Below the pieces are notes generated by a model that was given only the letters and a program-made list of their open reading frames with translations, was not told where the DNA came from and did not search any database. From Candidatus Woesearchaeota archaeon (GTDB taxonomy: Archaea; Nanobdellota; Nanobdellia; SCGC-AAA011-G17; UBA489), in contig CAYFJW010000001.1 in the NCBI GenBank assembly GCA_964343875.1, positions 81,345-145,344 on the forward strand: a stretch of 64,000 bases of DNA, written 5' to 3'. How positions within the stretch are numbered: position 1 is the first letter of the stretch; every line of letters begins with the position of its first letter. This document shows positions 9,594-61,604 of the stretch, one piece after another. Both the position numbers and the translations under genes were made by a program.

Positions 9594-10976
9594 ATGGCAC
9601 AAGACTTCGATGCACTTCTACAATTCTATGCAAGAAAAGATATCCAAGAAGCAATATTAGAACTAGCAGAAAACAGGGAAGTCACTGGTTCTTTCAATAT
9701 GCAAGCATTCGGTAAGCGACCAGATGTTCTCCAATACAAATCAGACATCTTCGAACTAGCAAGGAAGGGGATTACCTCGTTCCATGTTTCAGAAGAAAGG
9801 TGGTCCAACCCACTAGAAATCAGAACAGGCATGTCAAAAAAAGAATTAGACCAAATAAGAATCGGATGGGATTGTGTCTTAGACATTGATTCAACATATG
9901 TTGAATACTCCCAAATAACTACATATTTACTCATTGAGGCATTAAAATTATACGGCCTAAAATCGTTCGGAGTTAAATTCTCCGGAAGAAAAGGATTCCA
10001 CATAATAATCCCCTTTGAAGCATTCCCAAAAGAAGTTGATGGAAAACCAATTGAAACAATGTTCCCCGAAGGTCCAAGAATGATTGCAGACTTCTTGGGA
10101 GAAAAAATATACGAAAAACTATCAGAGATGATTCTAAAAGACCAAAAGATAGAGGACATTGTGAAACTAACAAACAAACCAATTGAAGAACTAACAGATA
10201 AAAATGGCAACTTCAACCCATTCTCAATAGTTGATATCGACACCATCCTAATCTCCTCAAGACACTTATTCCGTTCAGTTTATTCAATCAACGAGAAATC
10301 CTGGTTAGTGAGTGTTCCAATAGATCCCAATAAAATAATGGAATTCAAACTAAGGGATGCAAAGTTTGAAAATGTCAAAACAGATATTAAATTCTTAAAA
10401 AAACCAGAAAAAGATGAGGCTAGAACCTTAATACTGCAGGCCTTTGACGAATCAAGAGAGCAATTCATACAGGGAAAGAAATCAACAATAGTAATAGAAG
10501 GAAAAGATTACTTCGAAGAAGATTCAACAAAGAGAGAATTCAAACCAGAAGACATAGACAACAAATTAGTAAAAGAAGAATACTTCCCTCCCTGCATTAA
10601 AGCCCTTCTAAACGGCACAGAAGAAGACGGGAGAAAGCGTTCCTTATTCATATTAATGAACTTCTTCAAAGGACTCAACTTCTCACAAGCAGCAATCAAA
10701 GAAAAAATAGACGAATGGAATAAGAAAAACTATGAGCCATTAAGAGAGGGCTATGTCATAGCCCAATTAAACTCCTTGATGAGAAGCTCCACTTTAATGC
10801 CTCCAAATTGTAAGAACGATGCATATTACACCTCTTTAAGAGTCTGCAAACCCGACAACTTCTGCCAGAAAATAAAGAACCCTCTAAATTACACTACAAA
10901 AAAGATGTGGATAGAAAAACAAAACAAGAAGAAAAGAAGAACTTCAAAAAAAGTATCAAAAAAACAAAAGAAATAA
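9594..10976 (+). CDS. priS: DNA primase small catalytic subunit PriS fused to a Cys-rich PriL-CTD-like C-terminal domain
   Basis: Catalytic motifs WDCVLDIDSTY (DxD) and FSGRKGFHIIIPFEA (SGxRGxH). The C-terminal ~150 aa carries four Cys (FPPC, PPNC, RVC, NFC) and a Lys-rich tail. Confidence 0.75.
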   Translation: MAQDFDALLQFYARKDIQEAILELAENREVTGSFNMQAFGKRPDVLQYKSDIFELARKGITSFHVSEERWSNPLEIRTGMSKKELDQIRIGWDCVLDIDSTYVEYSQITTYLLIEALKLYGLKSFGVKFSGRKGFHIIIPFEAFPKEVDGKPIETMFPEGPRMIADFLGEKIYEKLSEMILKDQKIEDIVKLTNKPIEELTDKNGNFNPFSIVDIDTILISSRHLFRSVYSINEKSWLVSVPIDPNKIMEFKLRDAKFENVKTDIKFLKKPEKDEARTLILQAFDESREQFIQGKKSTIVIEGKDYFEEDSTKREFKPEDIDNKLVKEEYFPPCIKALLNGTEEDGRKRSLFILMNFFKGLNFSQAAIKEKIDEWNKKNYEPLREGYVIAQLNSLMRSSTLMPPNCKNDAYYTSLRVCKPDNFCQKIKNPLNYTTKKMWIEKQNKKKRRTSKKVSKKQKK

Positions 10977-11598: not shown

Positions 11599-13335
11599 GT
11601 GTTAATGAGGTTAAGATTAATTCCAAAAGTTCTAATATTCATCTCAATTGTATTAGTCCTATCTTTGACAGTTAGCGCAGATAATCACACTTCTTCAGGA
11701 GAATTTGACCCAACAGACAGCTACTTATGGCTATCTGAGCAATGTGAAGCAGGTAATTGTGATGATGATCTAACTGCAACAGCATTCTATGCAGTGGCAA
11801 TGAAACGTTCTGGATATGGAAACACATACGGGATGCAAGCAATAAAGCACATTCAAGCAGAAAAGAAAGAATCAGATTCATGTTTCCCTTCAGGTAGCTG
11901 TAACATCAAAGAAACTGCCATGGCTTATTGGGCATTATCAGAATATGGAGAAGATACTGCAGGAATTGAAGATTACATCAGAGACGAATTAGACGTTGGT
12001 TTAACAGATAACTGGTGGTTAGAAATAGTTACAACTGCCCAGAACCAATACTGTACAATTGGCTATCCAAAAGAAGGTGTGCAAGAACAAATTGACATCC
12101 TAGTTGACCAAGGAACTTTCCCCGAATGTAACGCTGGCCAGCCAGAAACTTTTTTCGATCTAAATGAATGTATTGAAAACAACCCAGTAAATTCAAATCC
12201 AGCGTTAGAATTAACAATTGACTGTTCAGCAATAGGACAAGGAACAATAATCTCAATATTATACAACTCTGGGCCTTCATTCTACTTGACGGAGCAAGCA
12301 ACAACATCCAAGTACCAGACACAAGTAAAGAATGCCTGTCATTCAAGATCTGGAACCTGCGACAAAGACACCTCACTTTGGGCCAATTGGGTATTAGATA
12401 GCAGAAACTCAGACATTGACACAGGATTATTCTTACTAACACTGCACGACTCCTTAGACCCAATAGACACAGCACTATTATACTTAACAACCTCGGACAC
12501 AAATAGAAAGGATACACTACTAACGGAACTAATTGATTTGCAAAGACTTGACGGAAGTTTTAACAAAAACAACTTAGAAACAGCAACAGCAATCTTAGCA
12601 TTATCTGCTTCAGGTTCAACAGATGAATTAAACGCGGCAATTGGATACTTAGAAGGCTCAGTAAGATCAGAAGGTTCATGGGACGGAGATGAACTAACAA
12701 CTGCATTAGCACTTTATTCAGCATTCACAGGTGCATCGATAGATTTGCCCCCTCTAGGTCCGGCACCACCAGGATCACAACCACCTCCAGCAGTTTGTGG
12801 AGACAACTATTGCGACCCACAATTTGAAGATTATAACACATGTCCTAAAGACTGCCCGGCATTAGGTAACCCCGATTGCGTAGAAAACAATAAATGCGAA
12901 GTTCAATTTAATGAAAACTCAAACAACTGTCCAATTGATTGTTTCTGCGGGGACGGAATATGCGACTCAACAGAAAGCGGCCTTTGTGAACTAGATTGTG
13001 GCGCGATAGCAACACCCCCGCCAGGAGTTCCACAACCACCAATACAAATTGAAGAAGAAGGCGGACTCCCTTGGATAATTATGTTAATAATTTTAATATT
13101 GCTAATCTTGGCAGTATATCTTGCATACAACCATTACTTCTCAAAGAAGAAGAAACCGAAGAGCACATATTCAAACAGACCAACTTTCAATCCTTCGGCG
13201 GGAGGATTTAGTGAACCAAAACAAAGACCAAGGGCTCCACCAAGGCAAGCAAGACCCACAAGAGGAAAGAAATCCAAAGCAGAGTTAGAATTAGAAAAAT
13301 CATTAGGTGAAGCCAAGAGATTGCTTGGTAAATAG
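11599..13335 (+). CDS. Secreted type-I membrane protein with prenyltransferase/terpene-cyclase-like alpha/alpha-toroid repeats and a Cys-rich stalk
   Basis: Signal peptide, then repeats (WALSEYGEDTAG, LWANWVLDSRNSD). A Pro-rich linker leads to a Cys-rich module (CGDNYCDPQFEDYNTCPKDCP...). A TM helix (LPWIIMLIILILLILAVYL) and a basic tail follow. Confidence 0.5.
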   Translation: MLMRLRLIPKVLIFISIVLVLSLTVSADNHTSSGEFDPTDSYLWLSEQCEAGNCDDDLTATAFYAVAMKRSGYGNTYGMQAIKHIQAEKKESDSCFPSGSCNIKETAMAYWALSEYGEDTAGIEDYIRDELDVGLTDNWWLEIVTTAQNQYCTIGYPKEGVQEQIDILVDQGTFPECNAGQPETFFDLNECIENNPVNSNPALELTIDCSAIGQGTIISILYNSGPSFYLTEQATTSKYQTQVKNACHSRSGTCDKDTSLWANWVLDSRNSDIDTGLFLLTLHDSLDPIDTALLYLTTSDTNRKDTLLTELIDLQRLDGSFNKNNLETATAILALSASGSTDELNAAIGYLEGSVRSEGSWDGDELTTALALYSAFTGASIDLPPLGPAPPGSQPPPAVCGDNYCDPQFEDYNTCPKDCPALGNPDCVENNKCEVQFNENSNNCPIDCFCGDGICDSTESGLCELDCGAIATPPPGVPQPPIQIEEEGGLPWIIMLIILILLILAVYLAYNHYFSKKKKPKSTYSNRPTFNPSAGGFSEPKQRPRAPPRQARPTRGKKSKAELELEKSLGEAKRLLGK

Positions 13336-13341
13336 GGGGTT

Positions 13342-14622
13342 ATGATGGCCTTCAAAACAAAATATTTTTTATTCCTACTTCTTATTCCCATAGCACTTGC
13401 ACAATTAGACCTAATTGAAATAAATTCTCAAAGAACAGAACTATCACAAGGAGAGGTCTATCAAGCAGAAATAACACTAAACAACCCAATAACTGAATTA
13501 AAGAAAACAAACATTAAACTATATTCCTCAGAGAACGCAATAATTCCTGTGTCACCTTTCTTGAACGAACCAGGAAACAACCACTATTATCTCTACTTTG
13601 AAGTCCCTTACAGCATAGAAGACGGGACATATCAATTAAGAATACAAGACCAATCATTCCTGGTAAATGGCGTTCTTCAGCAATTTGAAGGCATAGAAGA
13701 AATAACAATCACAAAGTCACAACCATCTGTTGCAGTAACTCCCGGTTATTTCTTATTGCCTGAGGGAGAAACAGGACAGATTAGCATAACAACTACTTCA
13801 AAAGACATTCAAACAAACATATTTTTCCTAACTCCAAAATACATAACACACCCCTACATCACAGAACAATCAATTAACCCAAATGTACCAAGAACATTCA
13901 CTTTCGACTATAGCACTTTAAATGCAACATCCTCAGAGCTAGTAGTTAACTCTGGAACAAAACAATACAAAATTCCAGTATTAATCGAAGGTCAAATTGA
14001 AAACAATCAAGAAAACATCACCCAAAACCAACAAACAAGCCCAATTACATTCTTTGTAGATAACAACCACCTAGAAAAAACAATAAAATCAGACCAGGCA
14101 ATTGAAGGCAATCTCTACATGGCCAACACCCTAAACTCCTCAATAACCGACATAACCTCAGAACTAACAGGAAACCTAAAAGAAATAATAACAATGGGTT
14201 CTATCCAACCAATACCTGCTTCATCAAACTTCACAACATTCATGAGCATAAATCAAGCAAAGGATGCAAAAGAAGGCATTTACTCGGGAGATTTCATTCT
14301 TTCTAGCGAACTTTACAGCTCATCATTAGAAATAACAATAACTGTAGAAGAAACAGAAACAACAAGAGAAATCTTAGAACCTCCAGAAGTAACCGAAACA
14401 ACAGAGACCGCAGAACCAGAAGCAAAAGCTCCAATTGAGGAATTCATCCCTTGGGACCTTTCAGACGGATACGAAGAAGAATCAAAAGTGGCAGCAAATC
14501 CCTTCATATATCTAATCATTATTTTTGTAGTAATCGCAGTTGTAATTTTCCTATTATCGGGTAAAAAATCAACTAAGAAGAAAACATTCAAAGATTTAAT
14601 GAAAGAAAGTCAAAAGAAATAA
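13342..14622 (+). CDS. Secreted membrane-anchored surface protein (Thr/Glu-rich stalk)
   Basis: Signal peptide MMAFKTKYFLFLLLIPIALAQ, many NxS/T sequons, an ETETTREILEPPEVTETTETAEPE linker, and a C-terminal TM plus KKSTKKK tail. Confidence 0.5.
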   Translation: MMAFKTKYFLFLLLIPIALAQLDLIEINSQRTELSQGEVYQAEITLNNPITELKKTNIKLYSSENAIIPVSPFLNEPGNNHYYLYFEVPYSIEDGTYQLRIQDQSFLVNGVLQQFEGIEEITITKSQPSVAVTPGYFLLPEGETGQISITTTSKDIQTNIFFLTPKYITHPYITEQSINPNVPRTFTFDYSTLNATSSELVVNSGTKQYKIPVLIEGQIENNQENITQNQQTSPITFFVDNNHLEKTIKSDQAIEGNLYMANTLNSSITDITSELTGNLKEIITMGSIQPIPASSNFTTFMSINQAKDAKEGIYSGDFILSSELYSSSLEITITVEETETTREILEPPEVTETTETAEPEAKAPIEEFIPWDLSDGYEEESKVAANPFIYLIIIFVVIAVVIFLLSGKKSTKKKTFKDLMKESQKK

Positions 14623-15050: not shown

Positions 15051-16076
15051 TTACATCCTAAACAACACATAATAAACGCCCAATCCACCAATGAGATATA
15101 TGAGATAAAATGCCATTCCATCCCACCATTTCCTCTCTTTAACAGCGATTTTGGCGTCTTCATTAACCTCATTTACAGCATTTATATCCCTTTCTATTGC
15201 TCCACCCTTCAACAAAGTCCTGTCTTCTTTCTCAAAAACCCTCTGCCCCTCGACCCATATCAAACGCATATCTTTCTCCCTGAAACCCTCAACAACAAGT
15301 ACATATTCTCCTTCCTCGGGATAAGCAGAATTATTACAAACAGCAACAGGAAACTCAACAACCTGGCCATCATGGGCCTCGACCCTAAAGCTGCTAACAA
15401 CATCAACGCCCATTAAATAAGCCTTAATCTTCTCAGTTCCATCTCTATTATTCCAAATGGCAACCCTAACCTTTACATTACCACAGATATTGGGAGAATT
15501 ACTATCGACACCTTCGATATGAATATAACCATTTTCATCATTAACCTCTTCAATTTCTTTATTCTCTTCACTAGTTTCATTGCCTTCGCTCTCATTACTT
15601 GGCCCGTCATTAATCTCACCAGGACTAGGCACACAAGAGTATTCTTCTTCACCGTAACAAACAGCATTGCCGTCACCATTGCCAATTGATCCATCGTAAC
15701 TTTTACTATCGACTAAGTCCATATTCAAGTTGTACAATGAAACAACATCTTCCGCATTACTTAGTCCATTCCCGATAGTTTTCCCGGCCGAATAAATACT
15801 AACAAATTCCAAGTCAACATCGAAATAAGGAGGGTAACCCTCTTCAACAATTAAATTAATCTTACTATTCCCGCTTCCATTCACTAAAAGTATTATATCT
15901 TGGCTTGTTGAATCTTCAATTGTCCAACCATCAATCAATGTCCCCTCACTAAATATAACCTCCACGTATTCCTTGTTATTATCGCTCCCAGAAGGATTAT
16001 ACATGATCTCAGTTATCTCAGCATTTACAAAAGTAGAACAAAGAACAAACACCAAAACATAAATCCATCTAAACAT
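15051..16076 (-). CDS. Secreted membrane-anchored protein with an N-terminal lamin-tail-domain (LTD)-like module
   Basis: Signal peptide MFRWIYVLVFVLCSTFVNA, then EITEIMYNPSGSDNNKEYVEVIF (LTD signature INEI..NP....EfvEL). Acidic stalk and C-terminal TM. Confidence 0.5.
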   Translation of the reverse strand: MFRWIYVLVFVLCSTFVNAEITEIMYNPSGSDNNKEYVEVIFSEGTLIDGWTIEDSTSQDIILLVNGSGNSKINLIVEEGYPPYFDVDLEFVSIYSAGKTIGNGLSNAEDVVSLYNLNMDLVDSKSYDGSIGNGDGNAVCYGEEEYSCVPSPGEINDGPSNESEGNETSEENKEIEEVNDENGYIHIEGVDSNSPNICGNVKVRVAIWNNRDGTEKIKAYLMGVDVVSSFRVEAHDGQVVEFPVAVCNNSAYPEEGEYVLVVEGFREKDMRLIWVEGQRVFEKEDRTLLKGGAIERDINAVNEVNEDAKIAVKERKWWDGMAFYLIYLIGGLGVYYVLFRM

Positions 16077-16591: not shown

Positions 16592-16763
16592 TTAAAGGTC
16601 TCTTGCTTTAACTGTGGATCTTCCGTTCTCTTTAGCTCTTCTACAAGCGTCTTTAACTAGACCTTGAACTTGTACGCTAAGAGCATCAGCGAAATCACCA
16701 GCAACATTCATGCCTTTTGCAGCATCTTTAACTTTGCTTCTTACTACTAATATTTCTGCCATT
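16592..16763 (-). pseudogene. DUF1931-like histone-fold protein, interrupted by an apparent +1 frameshift near the N-terminus as given
   Basis: The frame from 16592 encodes ...SKVKDAAKGMNVAGDFADALSVQVQGLVKDACRRAKENGRSTVKARDL*. The ATG at 16763 (MAEILVVR) is out of frame by 1 nt at the CC near 16740-16741. Removing one base gives MAEILVVRSKVKDAAKG... Confidence 0.45.
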
Positions 16764-16912
16764 TTTATCATGCACCCCGTTTGTTTTTATTTTGATATCC
16801 ATGAAAAGGCCTTACAGACCTTCTATCTCATGTTTTCATTAGAATGATGCCCAAGTAGTATTTAAACATTTCGTTAATACAGCCTCTATTTGCTGTTTAA
16901 CAAGGTTTTAGA

Positions 16913-19900
16913 CTAAATTCCTGTCTTAGCAACAGGTCCAGCTAGATCCTCAGAAATCACATCTACAACGCTCTCAATGACTCCTGAGCCTCCAGAACCG
17001 CCGTCTAAGCCCATTCCCTCAGTCTTCTCCAAGCAAATGACTCTAACTTCTTCATAGTCAAGAGTAATCTGGGTCGATAGTTCGGCTTTATTTCCTACAA
17101 CAACTTTTTCAGTCTTTGTAGGTCTAACACTTTCCCAAGAATTTATTTCAGTGATTATTGGCCAAGCCTGATTAATATAGTCGTTCCATGTTGCTCCAGG
17201 TGTGCTGTGGATATTATCAATCATTGGTTGCAATAAAGCCTGAATCTCTGGTTCAACATCGTCATGGTAAGGGTTTCCGTCTTCATGCCCAATCTTATAA
17301 GTTGTATACAACCAAGCACTTACATCTGTTGGTAAATTCTTTGCAGTTAGTTTTATTGTTGCACTTTTACCTGCCCTGTCAAAGTTAACACCATACCAAC
17401 AATAACTAGTTCCTTCCTGATTCCTAACAGTAAATGCACGAACAGTATCTTCTTCATTTAAGTCATCATCAACCATCAACGTTCCAGGCGCATCATGTAA
17501 TAGCTTAGATAACCAGAACACTGGTTTGTATACTCCACTTCTATCAATCATGTTTTCATCCCATCCAAGAAATCTTCCCTGTATTGTTCCGGGTTCATGA
17601 ACATTACTATAGAGTTGGAACCAACCCGCACGGTCTATATCATAATTAGCACTATTTGCAAGCAAAGCCATTGTACTTGAAACAGCATGTATGCCATCGC
17701 CATTGATCATTGGCTTACCGGGCAGACCATCACTAAACTCGTCCATATTTGTTCCTAAAAATGCACCATTATTTGCCCGCCAATGCTCAAGCGCCTGCTC
17801 CGGATCCCCCCCAGGAGTCATTGTATAGGGGTCAGGGTTGTAGTGGTGGTAGTGATGTGTTGCCTTTAGACCCTTAGCATCAAGAGCTTCAAAGACCTCA
17901 ATCGGTACATAGACTTTAGTTCCATTCTCTGAATTTAAAGTACCAAAGAATGCAGAAGTCCCATCAACTCCGACCTCATTACTCGGATCAACCTCATAAA
18001 CCGCCTCAACACCTGCAACCGTTAAATCAACAAATTCTTCCATTGTTGGCCACCAACAATCTCCAGGCGCCTTACAAACTTCCTTCCAATTCTCAACGAC
18101 AAAGTTTGGCTCATTCCATATTATGAAGTACTTGATCCCCTTTGAATTGTAATGTCTTACTACATCCTTAACATAATCTTTCCATGCTTGCATGTCCTTT
18201 GCAGGACCACTTGATTCATAAGTAACACATTCTGTACCAACAAAATCCGAACAATAAGCAATACCTTCTTCTGAAGGAATCCCTTTTATAACAACCATTA
18301 CTTTTGCGCCATTCTTCTGGAGTTTAGTGTGCACTCTGGTGGGAGGGAAACCTCTCTCATACCTATCAAATCTGTGCCCAGTCCTTACATGTATTCCCTC
18401 AACCCCAACCTCATTAATATAAGCATCTAAAAACTTAGGATGCATAAATGGCCCAATAACATTTCCAAAACCTTTAGTTAATCCATGAACATCCTTAACA
18501 ACTTGATCGGTATAAACATTCATCTCAAACTCTTTATCTCCCCCAGGTTCTACCTCAATAAACTCCCTCTCTTCTCCACCAATAATGCCTACACTCCCAG
18601 GCCCGCCCTCGCAAGGCTCGTAACCTGTCTCAAATCCATAGGACTGGAATTCCTCCAAACTCATCTCTTTTGTGTAATAGATAGTGGGGTTATCCACACA
18701 ATAAGTATTGCCACTTATGACAAGCCCATCTTTTGAATCTTCATGTAAATTAAGAAGTCTTTCAGTATTAATATTATCCTCGAAATTGTTTCTTATCAAA
18801 ATATTCTTAGCACCAACCCTATTGTTTCCATCAATCGTAGCATGCACACCAATTGCAACATCCACATCACTGATTGTATTCTCCTCAATACTACAATCAT
18901 GACACCCTTCAACACCTATTGAGCCCTTGTATCTATAAGTTCCATCCAAGGTTATCCTTTCAAAAACGTTTCTAATTGCATGAACGTTAGTTGCAACGGG
19001 ATCAACTCCAGCAGTTCCAGCCCAATTATTCCAACAACAACCGCCAAGTATCAATGCATGATTTCTCACAATCAAATCATGGAAATAGTTGTCAATATAA
19101 TAAACACCGCTAGCACCACCCTTCGCCCAAGAAACAGCACCGGGATCACGTACACTTAAAGAGTCATCATGGAACTCATTCTGTATTATCCATGCACCAT
19201 TAACACCAAATGCATCAACACTTTCACCTTCACCAGCAATGTTAAAAAATTCATTCCTATAAATTAAAACATTTGCAGATTCAGTTGTAGTTTTAATTCC
19301 ATCTTCGTATGCCTCACTTATCTTATTATTATAAACAACCAGATGGTCAGCAATATCTCTATCCCAGATAGTCATACAAACTCTGATGTAGCATCTAATA
19401 TCAAAGCCTTCAAGAGTTGTATACTTTCCGCCAAAATGGATCTTTCCGTCATTATGTCTGGCCTCCATAATCACATCCTCGCCCTCGTAAGCAAAGATCC
19501 TGATAGGCTTATCAGAAGTCCCTTGGAACTTTGCAGTAACACCTCCTTCATCTAGGATATAAGTTCCAGCCCCAACTGCAATAGCCTCACCGGCAACAAC
19601 GTCATACTTCTTCATTGCCTTCAATGTCGCACATGGACCATCAGCACCACTAATATACCGTGGGTACAAACAATTATTATCATCACTTGCCCCTTGTTCG
19701 TTCTGAGCAATGTAATATATTTTTTCAGGCTCAAAATTAAGCATATCTAAAAACTCTTGCGGAACATCGGAAGAATGTCCTCCGCCAACATCCAACATCC
19801 AACCTTCTCCATCACCACTTACCTCTTCTCCTTCAACAGTTTCAGGATCATCAACTAAACCAAAGAACCTAAAGGGAAAACTAAAGAAATTATCTACTCT

Positions 19901-20344
19901 TTTTGCAATAACCTCAATAAATGTTGTTCCTTCATTCCTTTCAATCTTTTTAGGGGTTATTTTCACCGGCTGAACTTTCTTAATGAGTGTATCATCTTTT
20001 AGAATCTTTTTTTCCTTTGGAACAATACCAAAACCACTTTCTACCTCATCAAATATTTCCTCAACAACAGTGTTTGGTGCATCGTCAACAGTTACATCAT
20101 CAACTACAGGAGGAACAGTCTTTACTTCAGGAACCTTGCTCCTTTGATAATCATCGATTTTAGCAATATCATCACCACAAAGAGTCACCCACTTACTCTC
20201 TTCTTCATACCAAACGGTTTTACATTCAACAAAGGAATCATCCGAGGCACCGCCAACACTACTAAAATCAGAGACAGCTCCAACCACGAACACGCTAGAT
20301 AAAAAAACTAAGCACAAAAGTAGTATGTTCTTCAGTCGGATCAC
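16913..20344 (-). CDS. Large secreted multidomain protein: right-handed parallel beta-helix domain plus clan GH-A (TIM-barrel) glycoside-hydrolase-like domain
   Basis: 1143 aa with signal peptide MIRLKNILLLCLVFLSSVFVVGAVS. Beta-helix repeats (NNKISEAYEDGIK...IYRNEFFNIAGEGESVDAFGVNGAWIIQNEFHDD). A YFIIWNEPNF motif is typical of GH-A acid/base glutamate. Confidence 0.55.
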   Translation of the reverse strand: MIRLKNILLLCLVFLSSVFVVGAVSDFSSVGGASDDSFVECKTVWYEEESKWVTLCGDDIAKIDDYQRSKVPEVKTVPPVVDDVTVDDAPNTVVEEIFDEVESGFGIVPKEKKILKDDTLIKKVQPVKITPKKIERNEGTTFIEVIAKRVDNFFSFPFRFFGLVDDPETVEGEEVSGDGEGWMLDVGGGHSSDVPQEFLDMLNFEPEKIYYIAQNEQGASDDNNCLYPRYISGADGPCATLKAMKKYDVVAGEAIAVGAGTYILDEGGVTAKFQGTSDKPIRIFAYEGEDVIMEARHNDGKIHFGGKYTTLEGFDIRCYIRVCMTIWDRDIADHLVVYNNKISEAYEDGIKTTTESANVLIYRNEFFNIAGEGESVDAFGVNGAWIIQNEFHDDSLSVRDPGAVSWAKGGASGVYYIDNYFHDLIVRNHALILGGCCWNNWAGTAGVDPVATNVHAIRNVFERITLDGTYRYKGSIGVEGCHDCSIEENTISDVDVAIGVHATIDGNNRVGAKNILIRNNFEDNINTERLLNLHEDSKDGLVISGNTYCVDNPTIYYTKEMSLEEFQSYGFETGYEPCEGGPGSVGIIGGEEREFIEVEPGGDKEFEMNVYTDQVVKDVHGLTKGFGNVIGPFMHPKFLDAYINEVGVEGIHVRTGHRFDRYERGFPPTRVHTKLQKNGAKVMVVIKGIPSEEGIAYCSDFVGTECVTYESSGPAKDMQAWKDYVKDVVRHYNSKGIKYFIIWNEPNFVVENWKEVCKAPGDCWWPTMEEFVDLTVAGVEAVYEVDPSNEVGVDGTSAFFGTLNSENGTKVYVPIEVFEALDAKGLKATHHYHHYNPDPYTMTPGGDPEQALEHWRANNGAFLGTNMDEFSDGLPGKPMINGDGIHAVSSTMALLANSANYDIDRAGWFQLYSNVHEPGTIQGRFLGWDENMIDRSGVYKPVFWLSKLLHDAPGTLMVDDDLNEEDTVRAFTVRNQEGTSYCWYGVNFDRAGKSATIKLTAKNLPTDVSAWLYTTYKIGHEDGNPYHDDVEPEIQALLQPMIDNIHSTPGATWNDYINQAWPIITEINSWESVRPTKTEKVVVGNKAELSTQITLDYEEVRVICLEKTEGMGLDGGSGGSGVIESVVDVISEDLAGPVAKTGI

Positions 20345-20370
20345 CTCTGTTTATAAATGAACTAATCTTT

Positions 20371-20378
20371 TTTATAAA
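20371..20378. promoter_or_regulatory. TTTATAAA TATA-box in a divergent promoter region (second copy at ~20350-20357)
   Basis: Palindromic archaeal TATA consensus about 27-30 nt upstream of the minus-strand ATG at 20344. This suggests a leaderless transcript. Confidence 0.4.
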
Positions 20379-20502
20379 CGTTTTGATACCTCGAGATGTA
20401 TAATTATTCGGATTCTAGGATTAAAAAGCCCAGTCATCGAGCCAGGAAACGCATTTTAAAAAGAATAACGTTTATAACTTAAGGAAGAAGCCTAATTTTA
20501 AA

Positions 20503-22050
20503 ATGGATAACAATGGAATCTTCAATTGGGCAGATAACGCGGGAAAGAAGGTTATTAAGGAAAAAGGAGACAAAAAACTATACGTCTGCGCTTCAGGAAT
20601 AAGTCCTTCTGGGCACATCCACATAGGCAACTTTAGGGAAATAATCACTACTGCCTTGGTAGTTAAGTCTCTAAAAGCCCAAGGAAAGAAGGTACGATTT
20701 ATTTATTCATGGGACGATTTTGATGCTTTTAGAAAAGTTCCAAGGGACTTTCCAGAGGAGTTCTCAAAATACATTGGAATGCCCCTTTGCAAAGTACCAG
20801 ACCCAAAAGGCTGCCACAAAAGTTATTCTGAACATTTTAAAAAAGAATTAGAAGAATCAATCGAACATCTTGATCTTGGAATCGAATACATTCATCAAGG
20901 AGAAATGTACCAATCATGCAAATATGCAGAAAAAATAAAAGAAGCTCTCAACAAAAAAGACCAAATAAGGGACATTCTAAATAAATTTAGAAAAGAACCA
21001 TTCCCAGAAGAGTGGACCCCTCTTGAAGTGTTCTGTGAAAAGTGTTGGAAAAATAAAACAACTATCTTAGAGTATGATGGCGATTATGAAGTTCACTATG
21101 AATGCACATGCGGTCATTCAAATAAAATAGACTTCAGAAAAGTTGGAAATGTTAAACTTTTGTGGCGTGCAGACTGGCCAATGCGGTGGGTGTATGAGAA
21201 AGTTGATTTTGAACCAGGAGGGAGAGACCACTCCACTAACGGAGGGTCTTTCGAAACTGGAAAGGAGATTATTAACAAACTATGGGGCAGAGATGCACCT
21301 TCCTACGTAGCATATGAATGGATATCTGCAAAGGGCGGAGCGGACTTTTCTAGCTCAGCAGGGGTTGTAACACTTCCAAAAGAAGTTCTTGAGATATACG
21401 AACCAGACGTTATGATTTATCTTTTCACAGGCACACAACCAAATAAACCGTTCGATATCAGTTTTGATTTAGACGTACTAAAGGTTTACGAAGATTTTGA
21501 TAAGGTTGAGAGAATTTATTTTGATAAGGAAGAAGCATCTGAAAAAGAAAAGCAAAAAATGAGAAGAATCTATGAGTTATCTTGTAAAAACATTCCTAAA
21601 AAAATTGGAGACCAACCTACATTCAGACACCTGACAACTCTTTTACAAATCTATGAGGGAGATATCAAAAAAGCAACTGAAGGAATAGTTTCTTCAAGAA
21701 TAAATGAAAGAGCAAAATGTGCCCTCAACTGGTTGGAAAAGTATGCTCCAGAAGACTTCAAATTTAAGGTTCATGAAAAAATAACAGATGAAATAAATGA
21801 ACATTTAACGGATAAACAAAAATCTTCCTTAAGGGACCTTAAAGAGGCACTTAACAAAAAAAGTTTCGATGAAATGGGTCTCTTTGAAGAATTTTATAGT
21901 ATTTCTGAAAAAAACGGGTTGAAGAATACTGAATTTTTTGAAGGAGCCTATTTAGCGATTATTGGAAAGAAAAAGGGTCCAAGATTAGCTAATTTCATCT
22001 TAGTATTGGGTCAAAAAAGAATTTCAGAGCTTTTGAACGGTGTGAAATGA
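20503..22050 (+). CDS. lysS: Lysyl-tRNA synthetase, class I (archaeal type)
   Basis: SGISPSGHIHIGNFREI (class-I LysRS HIGH variant), Cys-rich zinc region, and a 515-aa length. Confidence 0.8.
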   Translation: MDNNGIFNWADNAGKKVIKEKGDKKLYVCASGISPSGHIHIGNFREIITTALVVKSLKAQGKKVRFIYSWDDFDAFRKVPRDFPEEFSKYIGMPLCKVPDPKGCHKSYSEHFKKELEESIEHLDLGIEYIHQGEMYQSCKYAEKIKEALNKKDQIRDILNKFRKEPFPEEWTPLEVFCEKCWKNKTTILEYDGDYEVHYECTCGHSNKIDFRKVGNVKLLWRADWPMRWVYEKVDFEPGGRDHSTNGGSFETGKEIINKLWGRDAPSYVAYEWISAKGGADFSSSAGVVTLPKEVLEIYEPDVMIYLFTGTQPNKPFDISFDLDVLKVYEDFDKVERIYFDKEEASEKEKQKMRRIYELSCKNIPKKIGDQPTFRHLTTLLQIYEGDIKKATEGIVSSRINERAKCALNWLEKYAPEDFKFKVHEKITDEINEHLTDKQKSSLRDLKEALNKKSFDEMGLFEEFYSISEKNGLKNTEFFEGAYLAIIGKKKGPRLANFILVLGQKRISELLNGVK

Positions 22051-61506: not shown

Positions 61507-61604
61507 CGGACCCGATAGGATTTGAACCTACGACCTTCTGCTCACTTCTGAGTCCGAAGACTTAATAGAAGGCAGACGCTCTATCCAAACTGAGCTACGG
61601 GCCC
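61507..61604 (-). tRNA. tRNA-Arg (anticodon TCT) with a ~23-nt canonical-position intron
   Basis: GGGCCCG acceptor (G3:U70), D-arm GCTCAGTTTGGATAGAGC, anticodon stem TCTGC...GCAGA. The mature loop is CTTCTAA after removal of TTAAGTCTTCGGACTCAGAAGTG. The intron pairs with the anticodon in a BHB-like arrangement. The gene lies 2 nt from tRNA-Cys. Confidence 0.65.

What the first reader, a model, noticed from the sequence alone, without database searches (positions are those of the whole stretch)
16913..20344. 3.4-kb secreted beta-helix plus GH-A glycoside-hydrolase fusion, the largest gene in the window
A signal peptide is followed by a pectate-lyase-like parallel beta-helix (repeated N…I…G motifs) and a TIM-barrel region with the GH-A signature FIIWNEPNF. 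A C-terminal beta-rich domain follows. In a streamlined, probably host-associated archaeon, a giant extracellular polysaccharide-active enzyme could target the host cell envelope, S-layer glycans or EPS. That would be relevant to attachment or feeding.
Basis: partly seen in the sequence, partly recalled or inferred. Interest (0 to 1): 0.55.

Follow-up and report, generated by a model that had tools for sequence, protein, structure and literature searches.

The report
Secreted beta-helix plus GH39-like archaeal enzyme
The largest gene in this window encodes an exported protein of a tiny DPANN (Woesearchaeota-type) archaeon that joins a pectate-lyase-like beta-helix to a very divergent family-39-like sugar-cleaving enzyme; the domain call is right and the family is rare, but what it cuts, and whether that is a host's cell envelope, is still unknown.

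Summary
Window 16913-20344 (minus strand) is one intact 1143-aa ORF and the largest in the window.

Its parts, in order:
- an N-terminal signal-like hydrophobic segment;
- a lineage-specific N-module of about 160 aa;
- a clan GH-A (beta/alpha)8 barrel with a beta-sandwich whose best structural and sequence relatives are all GH39.

FIIWNEPNF holds the predicted acid/base E745. It is invariant and aligns to the GH39 nucleophile.

The GH domain misses Pfam's GH39 cut-off (19.7-22.2 bits against 26). Its family is tiny: 15 hits among 1.84 billion representative proteins. The conserved core of the beta-helix matches no solved enzyme by sequence, so lyase versus hydrolase cannot be decided.

Relatives are Candidatus Woesearchaeota MAGs at a syntenic housekeeping locus, plus a few bacteria (Omnitrophica, Deltaproteobacteria). 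Most relatives lack the beta-helix, so it is a modular insertion.

The host-envelope idea is plausible but untested. It has already been proposed for pectin-lyase-like surface proteins of a cultivated DPANN archaeon.

Verdict: a real, rare variant of known enzyme kinds, of moderate interest.

The parts
16913..20344 (-). Whole gene: 1143 codons plus stop, GTG start.
   Evidence: ORF list. Full-length orthologues P0001-P0004 at 64-89% identity.
20345..20380 (-). Upstream region with two TTTATAAA boxes (20375-20368 and 20357-20350) that look like archaeal TATA boxes. The first is centred about 27 nt before the GTG.
   Evidence: Read directly from the sequence. Their function is inferred. The promoter scanner does not cover archaeal promoters and was not used.
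20276..20344 (-). Predicted Sec-type signal peptide, aa 1-23 (MIRLKNILLLCLVFLSSVFVVGA|VSD).
   Evidence: It is the only hydrophobic segment of the protein and is conserved in orthologues. All bacterial relatives of either domain also begin with signal or lipoprotein-like peptides. The cleavage site is inferred.
19793..20275 (-). Lineage-specific N-module, aa 24-184. It contains a Cys-x14-Cys element (ECKTVWYEEESKWVTLCG), an acidic linker, and the conserved motifs EIFDEVExGFGIVP and FFSFPFRFFG. Function unknown; a possible tether to the cell surface.
   Evidence: Conserved in both long and short forms from Woesearchaeota. No Pfam or PHROGs hit. No paralogue elsewhere in the window.
18593..19792 (-). 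Right-handed parallel beta-helix domain, aa 185-584, with a Pel9A/PL6-like N-terminal cap.
19022..19312 (-). Conserved polar stack of the beta-helix: AYEDGIKTTT (E347, D348, K351), GEGESVDAFG (D377), SWAKGG (W406, K408), NYFHD (D423) and LILGGCCWNNW (C436, C437, W438, N439). This is the candidate active or binding cleft.
   Evidence: These residues are invariant across 9 sequences down to 33% identity, and each falls on the third strand of one of four consecutive coils of the model. This region has no significant match to any solved structure by sequence.
17480..18592 (-). Gly/Pro-rich linker, two leading strands, and a divergent GH39-like (beta/alpha)8 barrel, aa 585-955.
   Evidence: Foldseek top 10 are GH39 enzymes, E 6.6e-18 to 5e-15. 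hmmsearch versus PDB hits GH39 6yyh at E 3.8e-4. hhalign to GH39-positive relatives gives 99.96% probability, E 4.4e-39. Pfam GH39 is the only family hit, at 22.2 bits against a cut-off of 26. The model is of medium quality (pLDDT 67.6) and is poor over aa 860-940.
18101..18127 (-). FIIWNEPNF, aa 740-748. N744-E745 is the predicted catalytic acid/base at the end of barrel strand 4.
   Evidence: Translation. Aligns with WNEPN of the GH39 xylosidases 1px8, 2bs9 and 6yyh. Invariant in 13 of 13 family members.
17726..17749 (-). NMDEFSDG, aa 866-873. E869 is the predicted catalytic nucleophile (strand 7).
   Evidence: Translation. Aligns to ITEFNSS of 6yyh and to ILSEFNSG of a bona fide GH39 protein, P0027. 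D868-E869 is invariant in 13 of 13. The local model confidence is low.
17015..17479 (-). C-terminal beta-sandwich with a two-helix insert, aa 956-1110.
   Evidence: Predicted strands at aa 956-1018 and 1076-1107 and helices at aa 1031-1067. Matches the ancillary beta domain of GH39, GH30 and GH51 structures.
16913..17014 (-). 33-aa C-terminal tail (MGLDGGSGGSGVIESVVDVISEDLAGPVAKTGI) plus the stop codon. Found only in the window and its closest relative. Function unknown.
   Evidence: Alignment and BLAST. It is not hydrophobic, so it is not a membrane anchor.

Best explanation
The gene encodes an exported, modular carbohydrate-active enzyme of a DPANN (Woesearchaeota-type) archaeon.

Export. 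After Sec-dependent export (inferred), a lineage-specific N-module carries two polysaccharide-directed modules. The N-module may hold the protein at the cell surface; this is speculative.

Module 1 is a right-handed parallel beta-helix of the pectin-lyase fold, with a PL9/PL6-like cap. It has an invariant stack of acidic and lysine residues plus a vicinal Cys-Cys-Trp-Asn motif along one sheet. It most likely binds a polymeric glycan, probably an acidic one, and probably cleaves it. Whether it works by beta-elimination or by hydrolysis cannot be told.

Module 2 is a very divergent GH39-like clan GH-A barrel with a beta-sandwich. It should act as a retaining glycosidase by the classical double-displacement mechanism, with E745 (NEP) as acid/base and E869 (DEF) as nucleophile.

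Together the two would depolymerise one complex extracellular glycan: the helix would open or hold the polymer, and the GH39-like domain would trim or cut it.

Shown: the ORF, the two folds, the relation to GH39, the conservation and alignment of both glutamates, and the modular insertion of the helix.
Inferred: export, activity, cooperation of the two domains, and any substrate.
For: - ORF and orthologues.
- Beta-helix fold. Cap homology to PL6, PL9 and GH136. Pfam NosD and Beta_helix. The precomputed family PF22842 (Pel9A-like_beta_helix) is recorded on orthologues.
- The conserved polar stack lies on one sheet of four consecutive coils.
- GH39 relation. Remote relatives found with the family profile pass the Pfam GH39 cut-off (40.8-272.7 bits).
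- A catalytic constellation typical of clan GH-A is invariant in 13 of 13 members: R654/H657, N744-E745, H831/H833/Y835, E869 and F909 (W908 is nearly invariant).
- Every relative of either domain starts with a signal or lipoprotein-type peptide, or carries a T9SS sorting domain.
- Chromosomal and syntenic in four or more Woesearchaeota genomes.
Against: - The Pfam GH39 score is below the curated cut-off for the window protein (19.7 bits full length, 22.2 bits for the domain alone, against 26).
- The GH model is only of medium quality, and the segment holding E869 is poorly modelled.
- No signal-peptide predictor or dbCAN run was possible.
- No carbohydrate transport or catabolism genes flank the gene that would point to a substrate.
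Confidence: 0.75

Rival explanations
1. Host-envelope depolymerase. The enzyme sits on the surface of an episymbiotic Woesearchaeon and digests the glycan layer of its host (S-layer N-glycans, capsule, EPS, or a chondroitin-like wall) to allow attachment or feeding. This is analogous to phage tailspike depolymerases, with the beta-helix acting as the specificity module. It is a claim about biological role and is compatible with the mechanism above.
For: - DPANN lineage.
- Exported.
- The beta-helix is modular, present or absent among orthologues, and evolves out of step with the GH domain. P0004 is 78% identical in GH but 50% in the helix; P0003 is 67.5% and 72.6%. That is what a specificity module would be expected to do.
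- A cultivated DPANN archaeon has 908-1320-aa pectin-lyase-fold surface proteins for which the same role has been proposed: bioRxiv 10.1101/2023.10.27.564410.
- A bacterial homologue occurs in Omnitrophica. That this phylum also includes ultra-small, possibly host-dependent cells is from my own knowledge, not from a tool.
Against: There is no host, no expression data and no known substrate. The short form without the helix is the commoner one. The gene lies among housekeeping genes, not in a variable island. There is no similarity to viral families.
Confidence: 0.25
2. Foraging enzyme. A secreted depolymerase releases sugars from dissolved or particulate environmental polysaccharide (for example uronic-acid-rich marine EPS or algal polymers) for a fermentative, sugar-using archaeon.
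For: - The closest structural relatives act on alginate, pectin, rhamnogalacturonan and Vibrio polysaccharide, and on xylosides and iduronides.
- The related MAGs carry isolate names SI047_bin109 and SI054_bin47. I read SI as Saanich Inlet, a marine site; that reading is my inference, not a tool result.
- Secreted CAZymes have been reported from DPANN MAGs and interpreted as extracellular substrate breakdown: PMC8091004.
Against: No sugar transporter or downstream catabolic gene is seen near the gene in the window or in relatives. A single enzyme conserved at a housekeeping locus is unlike a polysaccharide-utilisation system. The family is extremely rare, which is odd for a common substrate.
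Confidence: 0.3
3. Self-directed enzyme. It trims or remodels the cell's own surface glycans or EPS, as the GH39 enzyme PslG does for Psl in Pseudomonas. The PslG comparison comes from my own knowledge, not from a tool result.
For: Strict synteny next to core genes across the clade suggests a lineage-core function. One tandem paralogue carries a type-IV-pilin-like N-terminus, which implies display on the cell's own surface.
Against: No glycosyltransferase or EPS-export genes are adjacent in the window, in the Woesearchaeota loci or in the Omnitrophica locus. PslG-type enzymes sit inside their biosynthetic operon.
Confidence: 0.15
4. The beta-helix is not an enzyme. It would be a glycan-binding, adhesin or spacer module (like PfbA) that presents the only catalytic domain, the GH39-like barrel.
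For: - The best Pfam hit is NosD.
- No catalytic motif of PL1, PL6, PL9 or GH28 could be aligned.
- The GH domain functions without the helix in most orthologues.
Against: - Charged residues (E347, D348, K351, D377, K408, D423) are invariant and stacked on one sheet across archaeal and bacterial stand-alone homologues at 33-41% identity. This is the typical signature of an active site.
- The stand-alone homologues of 456-554 aa have no other domain that could be catalytic.
- Most top structural neighbours are enzymes.
Confidence: 0.35
5. Mobile or viral depolymerase: a prophage tailspike or a recently transferred island gene rather than a resident chromosomal gene.
For: Tailspike proteins appear among the fold matches. 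The distribution is patchy across domains of life: Woesearchaeota, Omnitrophica, Deltaproteobacteria.
Against: There are no PHROGs hits for any part. The gene order is identical (Na+/H+ exchanger, Alba, S17e, methyltransferase, LysRS, this gene, Hjc-side genes) in several genomes. G+C is close to that of the surroundings.
Confidence: 0.03

Closest known systems
Glycoside hydrolase family 39 (clan GH-A), e.g. beta-xylosidases XynB (1px8/1uhv, 2bs9/2bfg, 6yyh) and alpha-L-iduronidase (4kgj)
   Same: - A (beta/alpha)8 barrel plus beta-sandwich; these are the top Foldseek hits.
- WNEPN acid/base motif and the x-x-E-[FY] nucleophile motif both align.
- GH39 is the only Pfam family detected.
- Profile-profile probability to GH39-positive relatives is 99.96%.
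   Different: - Only 12-16% identity to solved members.
- Below the Pfam gathering score.
- Forms a small separate clade with its own invariant motifs (THH-H-YNPDP, HEPGT, ENMID, a two-helix insert before INSWESVRPT).
- Fused to a beta-helix and to a novel N-module.
- Substrate unknown.
PL9 pectate lyase Pel9A (1ru4) and PL9 rhamnogalacturonan lyase (5olq/5olr); Pfam PF22842 Pel9A-like_beta_helix
   Same: - PF22842 is recorded on the orthologues.
   Different: - Similarity stops after about 140 residues.
- The Ca2+-binding Asp cluster and catalytic Lys of PL9 (residue identities recalled from memory, not checked here) could not be aligned.
- The family's own invariant motifs (EDGIKTTT, W-x-KGG, GGCCWNNW) have no PL9 counterpart found.
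PL6 alginate lyases and chondroitinase B (7o84, 6qps, 1dbg)
   Different: The match again covers the cap region and a few late coils only. The catalytic Lys/Arg and the Ca2+ site were not alignable.
BT_1002 (5mqp), a Bacteroides beta-helix glycoside hydrolase (the founding member of GH141, by my recollection)
[quoted passage not shown]
   Same: Large exported DPANN proteins with a parallel beta-helix, proposed to degrade the glycosylated host wall (bioRxiv 10.1101/2023.10.27.564410).
   Different: Those proteins combine the helix with Ig-like folds and many N-glycosylation sites, and no glycosidase domain is reported for them. Homology to the present protein was not tested. Their function is also untested.

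Membership tests
GH39 (Pfam PF01229 / CAZy GH39) | Sequence score above the curated family threshold | tested here: not met
   19.7 bits for the full length and 22.2 bits for the domain alone, against a cut-off of 26. 9 of 13 family members match at E<0.01; the best single-protein score seen for a family member was 24.7 bits (P0004), also below the cut-off. dbCAN/CAZy models were not available.
GH39 (Pfam PF01229 / CAZy GH39) | (beta/alpha)8 barrel with an attached beta-sandwich, closest in fold to GH39 structures | tested here: met
   Foldseek ranks 1-10 are GH39 chains (E 6.6e-18 to 4.8e-15, TM about 0.5), followed by GH30 and GH51. Caveat: model pLDDT is 67.6.
GH39 (Pfam PF01229 / CAZy GH39) | Acid/base Glu in the N-E-P motif after strand 4 | tested here: met
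   N744-E745-P746 aligns to WNEPN of 1px8, 2bs9 and 6yyh. It is invariant in 13 of 13 members and follows the predicted strand YFIIW.
GH39 (Pfam PF01229 / CAZy GH39) | Nucleophile Glu after strand 7, about 115-125 aa downstream | tested here: met
   E869 (+124 aa) aligns to the E of ITEFN in 6yyh and of ILSEFN in the GH39 protein P0027. It is invariant in 13 of 13. The position in three dimensions could not be verified because local pLDDT is below 50.
GH39 (Pfam PF01229 / CAZy GH39) | Retaining glycosidase activity (xylosidase, iduronidase or other) | not testable with these tools
   Needs enzymology.
Clan GH-A | Conserved constellation Arg (strand 2), Asn-Glu (strand 4), His/Tyr (strand 6), Glu (strand 7), Trp (strand 8) | tested here: met
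   R654/H657, N744-E745, H831/H833/Y835, E869 and F909 are invariant, and W908 is nearly invariant. All but the last two sites lie at the ends of predicted strands. The assignment to individual strands is inferred.
Pectin-lyase-fold (right-handed parallel beta-helix) superfamily | Three-stranded right-handed coils with an Asn ladder | tested here: met
   [not shown]
PL9 (Pel9A-like) | Homologous N-terminal cap and first coils (PF22842) | tested here: met
   Profile versus 1ru4 gives E 1.4e-8 over residues 14-147. PF22842 is precomputed on P0001-P0004 and P0013-P0016. My own Pfam scans (full-length protein at E<=1; isolated beta-helix domain at E<=0.01) did not list PF22842 for the window protein.
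PL9 (Pel9A-like) | Ca2+-binding aspartate cluster and catalytic lysine in equivalent positions | tested here: inconclusive
   The central conserved region found no lyase in the PDB (best hit RbmB, E 0.011, in a non-catalytic repeat).
PL6 (alginate lyase / chondroitinase B) | Family-level sequence match that includes the catalytic Lys/Arg and the Ca2+ site | tested here: inconclusive
Pfam Chondroitinas_B is hit by 1 of 9 family members, and not by the window protein.
Phage tailspike / capsule depolymerase | Viral family membership or a viral genomic context | tested here: not met
   No PHROGs hit for any of the three parts. The context is syntenic and housekeeping.

The most novel reading that the evidence does not exclude
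The protein is a cell-surface 'glycan drill' of an episymbiotic Woesearchaeon. A swappable beta-helix module, gained, lost or exchanged between close relatives, sets which host envelope glycan is recognised and opened. The GH39-like domain would represent a new CAZy-level family restricted to ultra-small, host-dependent archaea and bacteria (Woesearchaeota, Omnitrophica) and spread between them by horizontal transfer, possibly together with the neighbouring lysyl-tRNA synthetase gene. It would then be a cellular analogue of phage tailspike depolymerases and a marker for host range in DPANN.
Probability: 0.15. Interest if true: 0.75.

Novelty: new variant of a known kind. Interest (0 to 1): 0.4.

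Why it matters
How DPANN archaea contact and exploit their hosts is an open question, and exported glycan-cutting enzymes are among the few concrete candidates.

This gene offers a defined, testable candidate. It has two separable modules and two predicted catalytic glutamates to mutate. Natural controls exist: orthologues without the helix, stand-alone helices, and a pilin-tagged paralogue.

For carbohydrate enzymology it offers two things:
- a very rare, deeply divergent GH39-like clade (15 detectable relatives among 1.84 billion representative proteins);
- an unclassified beta-helix family with an unusual invariant GGCCWNNW motif. Either may have a new specificity.

If the substrate proves to be an ordinary environmental polymer, the finding is simply a new CAZyme subfamily.

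Tried and rejected
- Direct Pfam, NCBIfam and PDB sequence scans of the full protein gave only sub-threshold hits. The domain-wise profiles were needed.
- Word-indexed homologue searches returned very few sequences (5, 8 and 4). The alignments for structure prediction stayed shallow (13 and 9 rows), and the GH model is only of medium quality.
- I looked for model coordinates to measure the E745-E869 distance and to map the conserved stack.
- Viral origin was rejected: no PHROGs hits and conserved housekeeping synteny.
- A PslG-like role inside an EPS operon is not supported. No glycosyltransferase or export genes are nearby in the window, in the Woesearchaeota loci or in Omnitrophica.
- No paralogues of any module exist elsewhere in the window.
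- Literature searches found no description of this protein or of GH39-like enzymes in Woesearchaeota. They found only general DPANN CAZyme surveys and the Nanobdella pectin-lyase-like proteins.
- A C-terminal membrane anchor or sorting signal was considered for the 33-aa tail and rejected, because the tail is not hydrophobic.


Full report
**1. The observation**

Window 16913-20344 on the minus strand is one uninterrupted ORF of 1143 codons that starts with GTG. It is the longest ORF in the window; the next is 594 aa. The DNA is about 37% G+C, so a 3.4-kb open frame cannot be a chance event. Full-length orthologues at 64-89% identity exist in public metagenomes and MAGs.

The start is probably correct. 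Residues I-x-L-K-N-x-L are conserved in orthologues. A TTTATAAA box is centred about 27 nt upstream, the usual archaeal TATA distance for a leaderless or short-leader mRNA. A second box, and an AGAGGTGATCC string overlapping the GTG, leave about 10 codons of uncertainty.

**2. Anatomy**

(a) Signal peptide, aa 1-23. This is the only strongly hydrophobic segment. It has a basic n-region and a VGA|VSD c-region, so it reads as a Sec signal peptide. That is an inference; no predictor was available.

(b) N-module, aa 24-184. It has a Cys-x14-Cys element, an acidic linker and two conserved motifs (EIFDEVExGFGIVP and FFSFPFRFFG). It matches nothing in Pfam or PHROGs. It is shared by the long and short orthologues in Woesearchaeota.

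(c) Beta-helix, aa 185-584.
- There is an Asn ladder of seven h-h-x-N-x-h motifs.
- The isolated domain passes the Pfam NosD cut-off (26.3 bits against 23.6) and hits Beta_helix.
- With a 9-row alignment, AlphaFold gives pLDDT 88.8 and pTM 0.91, with all-parallel short strands.
- Foldseek ranks Pel9A first.
- At sequence-profile level the domain matches PL6 (E 1.4e-9), Pel9A (1.4e-8) and a GH136 enzyme (4.6e-7), but only over the N-terminal cap and first coils.
- The precomputed Pfam label on orthologues is PF22842, Pel9A-like_beta_helix.

(d) GH39-like region, aa 585-1110. After a Gly/Pro-rich linker comes a (beta/alpha)8 barrel followed by a beta-sandwich with a two-helix insert.
- The model is of medium quality: pLDDT 67.6, pTM 0.65, and poor over aa 860-940.
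- Its ten best Foldseek matches are all GH39 enzymes (E 6.6e-18 to 4.8e-15). Other GH39 enzymes (including iduronidase), GH30 and GH51 follow. All are clan GH-A with the same two-domain layout.

(e) Tail, aa 1111-1143. It is non-hydrophobic and found only in the closest relative.

**3. The catalytic residues of the GH domain**

- FIIWNEPNF (aa 740-748, window 18101-18127) aligns with the WNEPN acid/base motif of the GH39 xylosidases.
It is E869 in NMDEFSDG (window 17726-17749), 124 residues after E745.
- In an hmmsearch of the 13-sequence family profile against the PDB, the GH39 xylosidase 6yyh is the top hit (E 3.8e-4). The alignment places ...lGsnlDEFsdg... on ...LPIHITEFNSS..., the GH39 nucleophile motif.
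- An exhaustive HMMER search of 1.84 billion representative proteins with the family profile found only 15 proteins at E<=1e-3. Seven of the nine remote hits scanned pass the Pfam GH39 cut-off, at 30.8-272.7 bits.
- A profile-profile comparison between the family and six of the remote relatives (five of them GH39-positive) gives probability 99.96% and E 4.4e-39. It again pairs both glutamates with WNEPN and ILSEFN of a bona fide GH39 protein.
- N744-E745, D868-E869, R654/H657, H831/H833/Y835 and F909 are invariant in all 13 family members, and W908 is nearly so. This is the clan GH-A constellation.
- The window protein nevertheless scores only 19.7-22.2 bits on Pfam GH39, against a cut-off of 26.

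The family is therefore best described as a deeply divergent GH39-like clade. By analogy with clan GH-A (established knowledge) it is predicted to use the retaining double-displacement mechanism. Activity itself is inferred.

**4. Is the beta-helix an enzyme?**

Nine sequences were aligned: five fused, and four stand-alone proteins of 456-554 aa. The stand-alone set includes one named Candidatus Aenigmarchaeota and one with a T9SS sorting domain. At 33-41% identity they share invariant E347, D348, K351, T352 and T353 (AYEDGIKTTT), D377, W406-x-K408-G, N419-x-F-x-D423 and L-G-G-C436-C437-W-N-x-W.

Mapped on the model's strand pattern, these residues lie on the third strand of four consecutive coils. 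They therefore form one continuous conserved stripe. That is what an active-site or binding groove looks like, and the stand-alone proteins have no other domain that could be catalytic.

**5. Distribution, context and evolution**

The neighbours are archaeal housekeeping genes: Hjc resolvase, class I LysRS, an RNA/DNA methyltransferase, a Na+/H+ exchanger, SecY and a fused PriS-PriL primase.

In one-genome-per-species GTDB contigs the GH domain is found in only four species: three Candidatus Woesearchaeota MAGs (76, 66 and 64% identity) and one Omnitrophica WOR_2 bacterium (47%). Other members come from a Deltaproteobacteria MAG (44%) and, more remotely, a Dadabacteria MAG.

In the Woesearchaeota the gene sits at the same syntenic position every time. 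Only the window, P0001-P0004 and L003 carry the beta-helix. The others are 640-690 aa, with the N-module joined directly to the GH domain. The helix is therefore a clean modular insertion of about 400 aa.

The helix's history is discordant with that of the GH domain. P0004 is 78% identical to the window in GH but only 50% in the helix, almost as far as the stand-alone P0013 (45.5% to P0004). P0003 is 67.5% in GH and 72.6% in the helix. This suggests replacement or accelerated evolution of the helix.

No part matches viral families. No polysaccharide-synthesis or utilisation genes lie nearby, in the archaeal loci or in the Omnitrophica locus.

**6. Most likely mechanism and role**

The best-supported reading is an exported, two-module glycan depolymerase. 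The beta-helix binds, and probably cleaves, a polymeric and likely acidic glycan. The GH39-like barrel hydrolyses glycosidic bonds with E745 and E869.

The biological target is not determined. Three options remain:
- Host envelope attack by an episymbiont (about 25%).
- Foraging on environmental polysaccharide (about 30%). Compare the secreted CAZymes reported in DPANN MAGs (PMC8091004).
- Trimming of the cell's own surface glycans (about 15%).

The modular, discordantly evolving helix and the pilin-tagged paralogue lean towards a cell-surface interaction function, but they do not prove it.

**7. Comparison with known families, and novelty**

It works like a GH39/clan GH-A retaining glycosidase joined to a pectin-lyase-fold module. 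On membership:
- Clan GH-A: yes.
- GH39: fold and catalytic motifs yes, curated sequence threshold no.
- PL9 and PL6: cap homology yes, catalytic site not demonstrable.

The fusion, the N-module, the rarity of the clade and the GGCCWNNW helix family are new details. My literature searches found no description of them. The kinds of domain are well known, and the host-wall hypothesis is already in the literature. I rate it a new variant of a known kind, with interest 0.4.

Noticed in passing
window 20503-22050 (+); L003 4548-6101; L002 4448-5920; L004 5956-7428; L005 5932-7404; L006 6264-7703: The gene next to the GH39-like gene is class I (archaeal) LysRS in the window and L003. At the same syntenic position in three other Woesearchaeota it is class II (bacterial-type) LysRS, an in-place swap of non-homologous enzymes. 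The Omnitrophica bacterium also has class II lysS directly beside its GH39-like gene. LysRS is 45% identical and GH 47% identical between the bacterium and the archaea, which hints at transfer of a two-gene block.
   Followed up: partly
L002 8061-10031 (+), protein P0009; also P0010: A tandem second copy of the GH39-like gene replaces the usual N-module with an archaeal type-IV-pilin-like (class III signal) N-terminus. The in-frame sequence is RKRGQGALEFLMTYGWALVIVVISLG. The only upstream ATG (8061) is followed at once by TAG, so the true start is unclear.
   Followed up: partly
P0004 versus the window protein (aa 185-584 versus aa 585-1110): Domain-discordant divergence. The GH domain is 78% identical but the beta-helix only 50%. 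In P0003 the order is reversed (67.5% and 72.6%). This suggests exchange or fast evolution of the helix module.
   Followed up: partly
window 61507-61604 (-): Rfam finds a 98-nt tRNA (58.8 bits) directly next to tRNA-Cys that ARAGORN did not report. It is probably an intron-containing archaeal tRNA.
   Followed up: no
window 9594-10976 (+): A single 460-aa ORF matches both the small (PriS) and large (PriL) primase subunit families, so it is a fused primase.
   Followed up: no
window 15051-16076 (-): A 341-aa protein has a signal peptide, a lamin-tail-domain-like motif (EITEIMYNPSGSDNNKEYVEVIF), an acidic linker and a C-terminal membrane helix. It has no Pfam hit. It is conserved two to three genes from the GH39-like gene in relatives, at 343-347 aa.
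   Followed up: no
window 11599-13335 (+) and 13342-14622 (+): Two adjacent ORFs (578 and 426 aa) have no Pfam match. They are conserved in the same order in all related Woesearchaeota loci.
   Followed up: no
window 16913-17014 (-), aa 1111-1143: A Gly/Ser-rich, acidic 33-aa C-terminal tail is present only in the window protein and its 89%-identical relative. It is not hydrophobic and its purpose is unknown.
   Followed up: partly
window 16592-16771 (-): A 59-aa ORF lies between Hjc and the GH gene (MIKMAEILVVRSKVKDAAKG...). ORFs of similar size (56-69 aa) occupy this position in relatives. It was not analysed.
   Followed up: no
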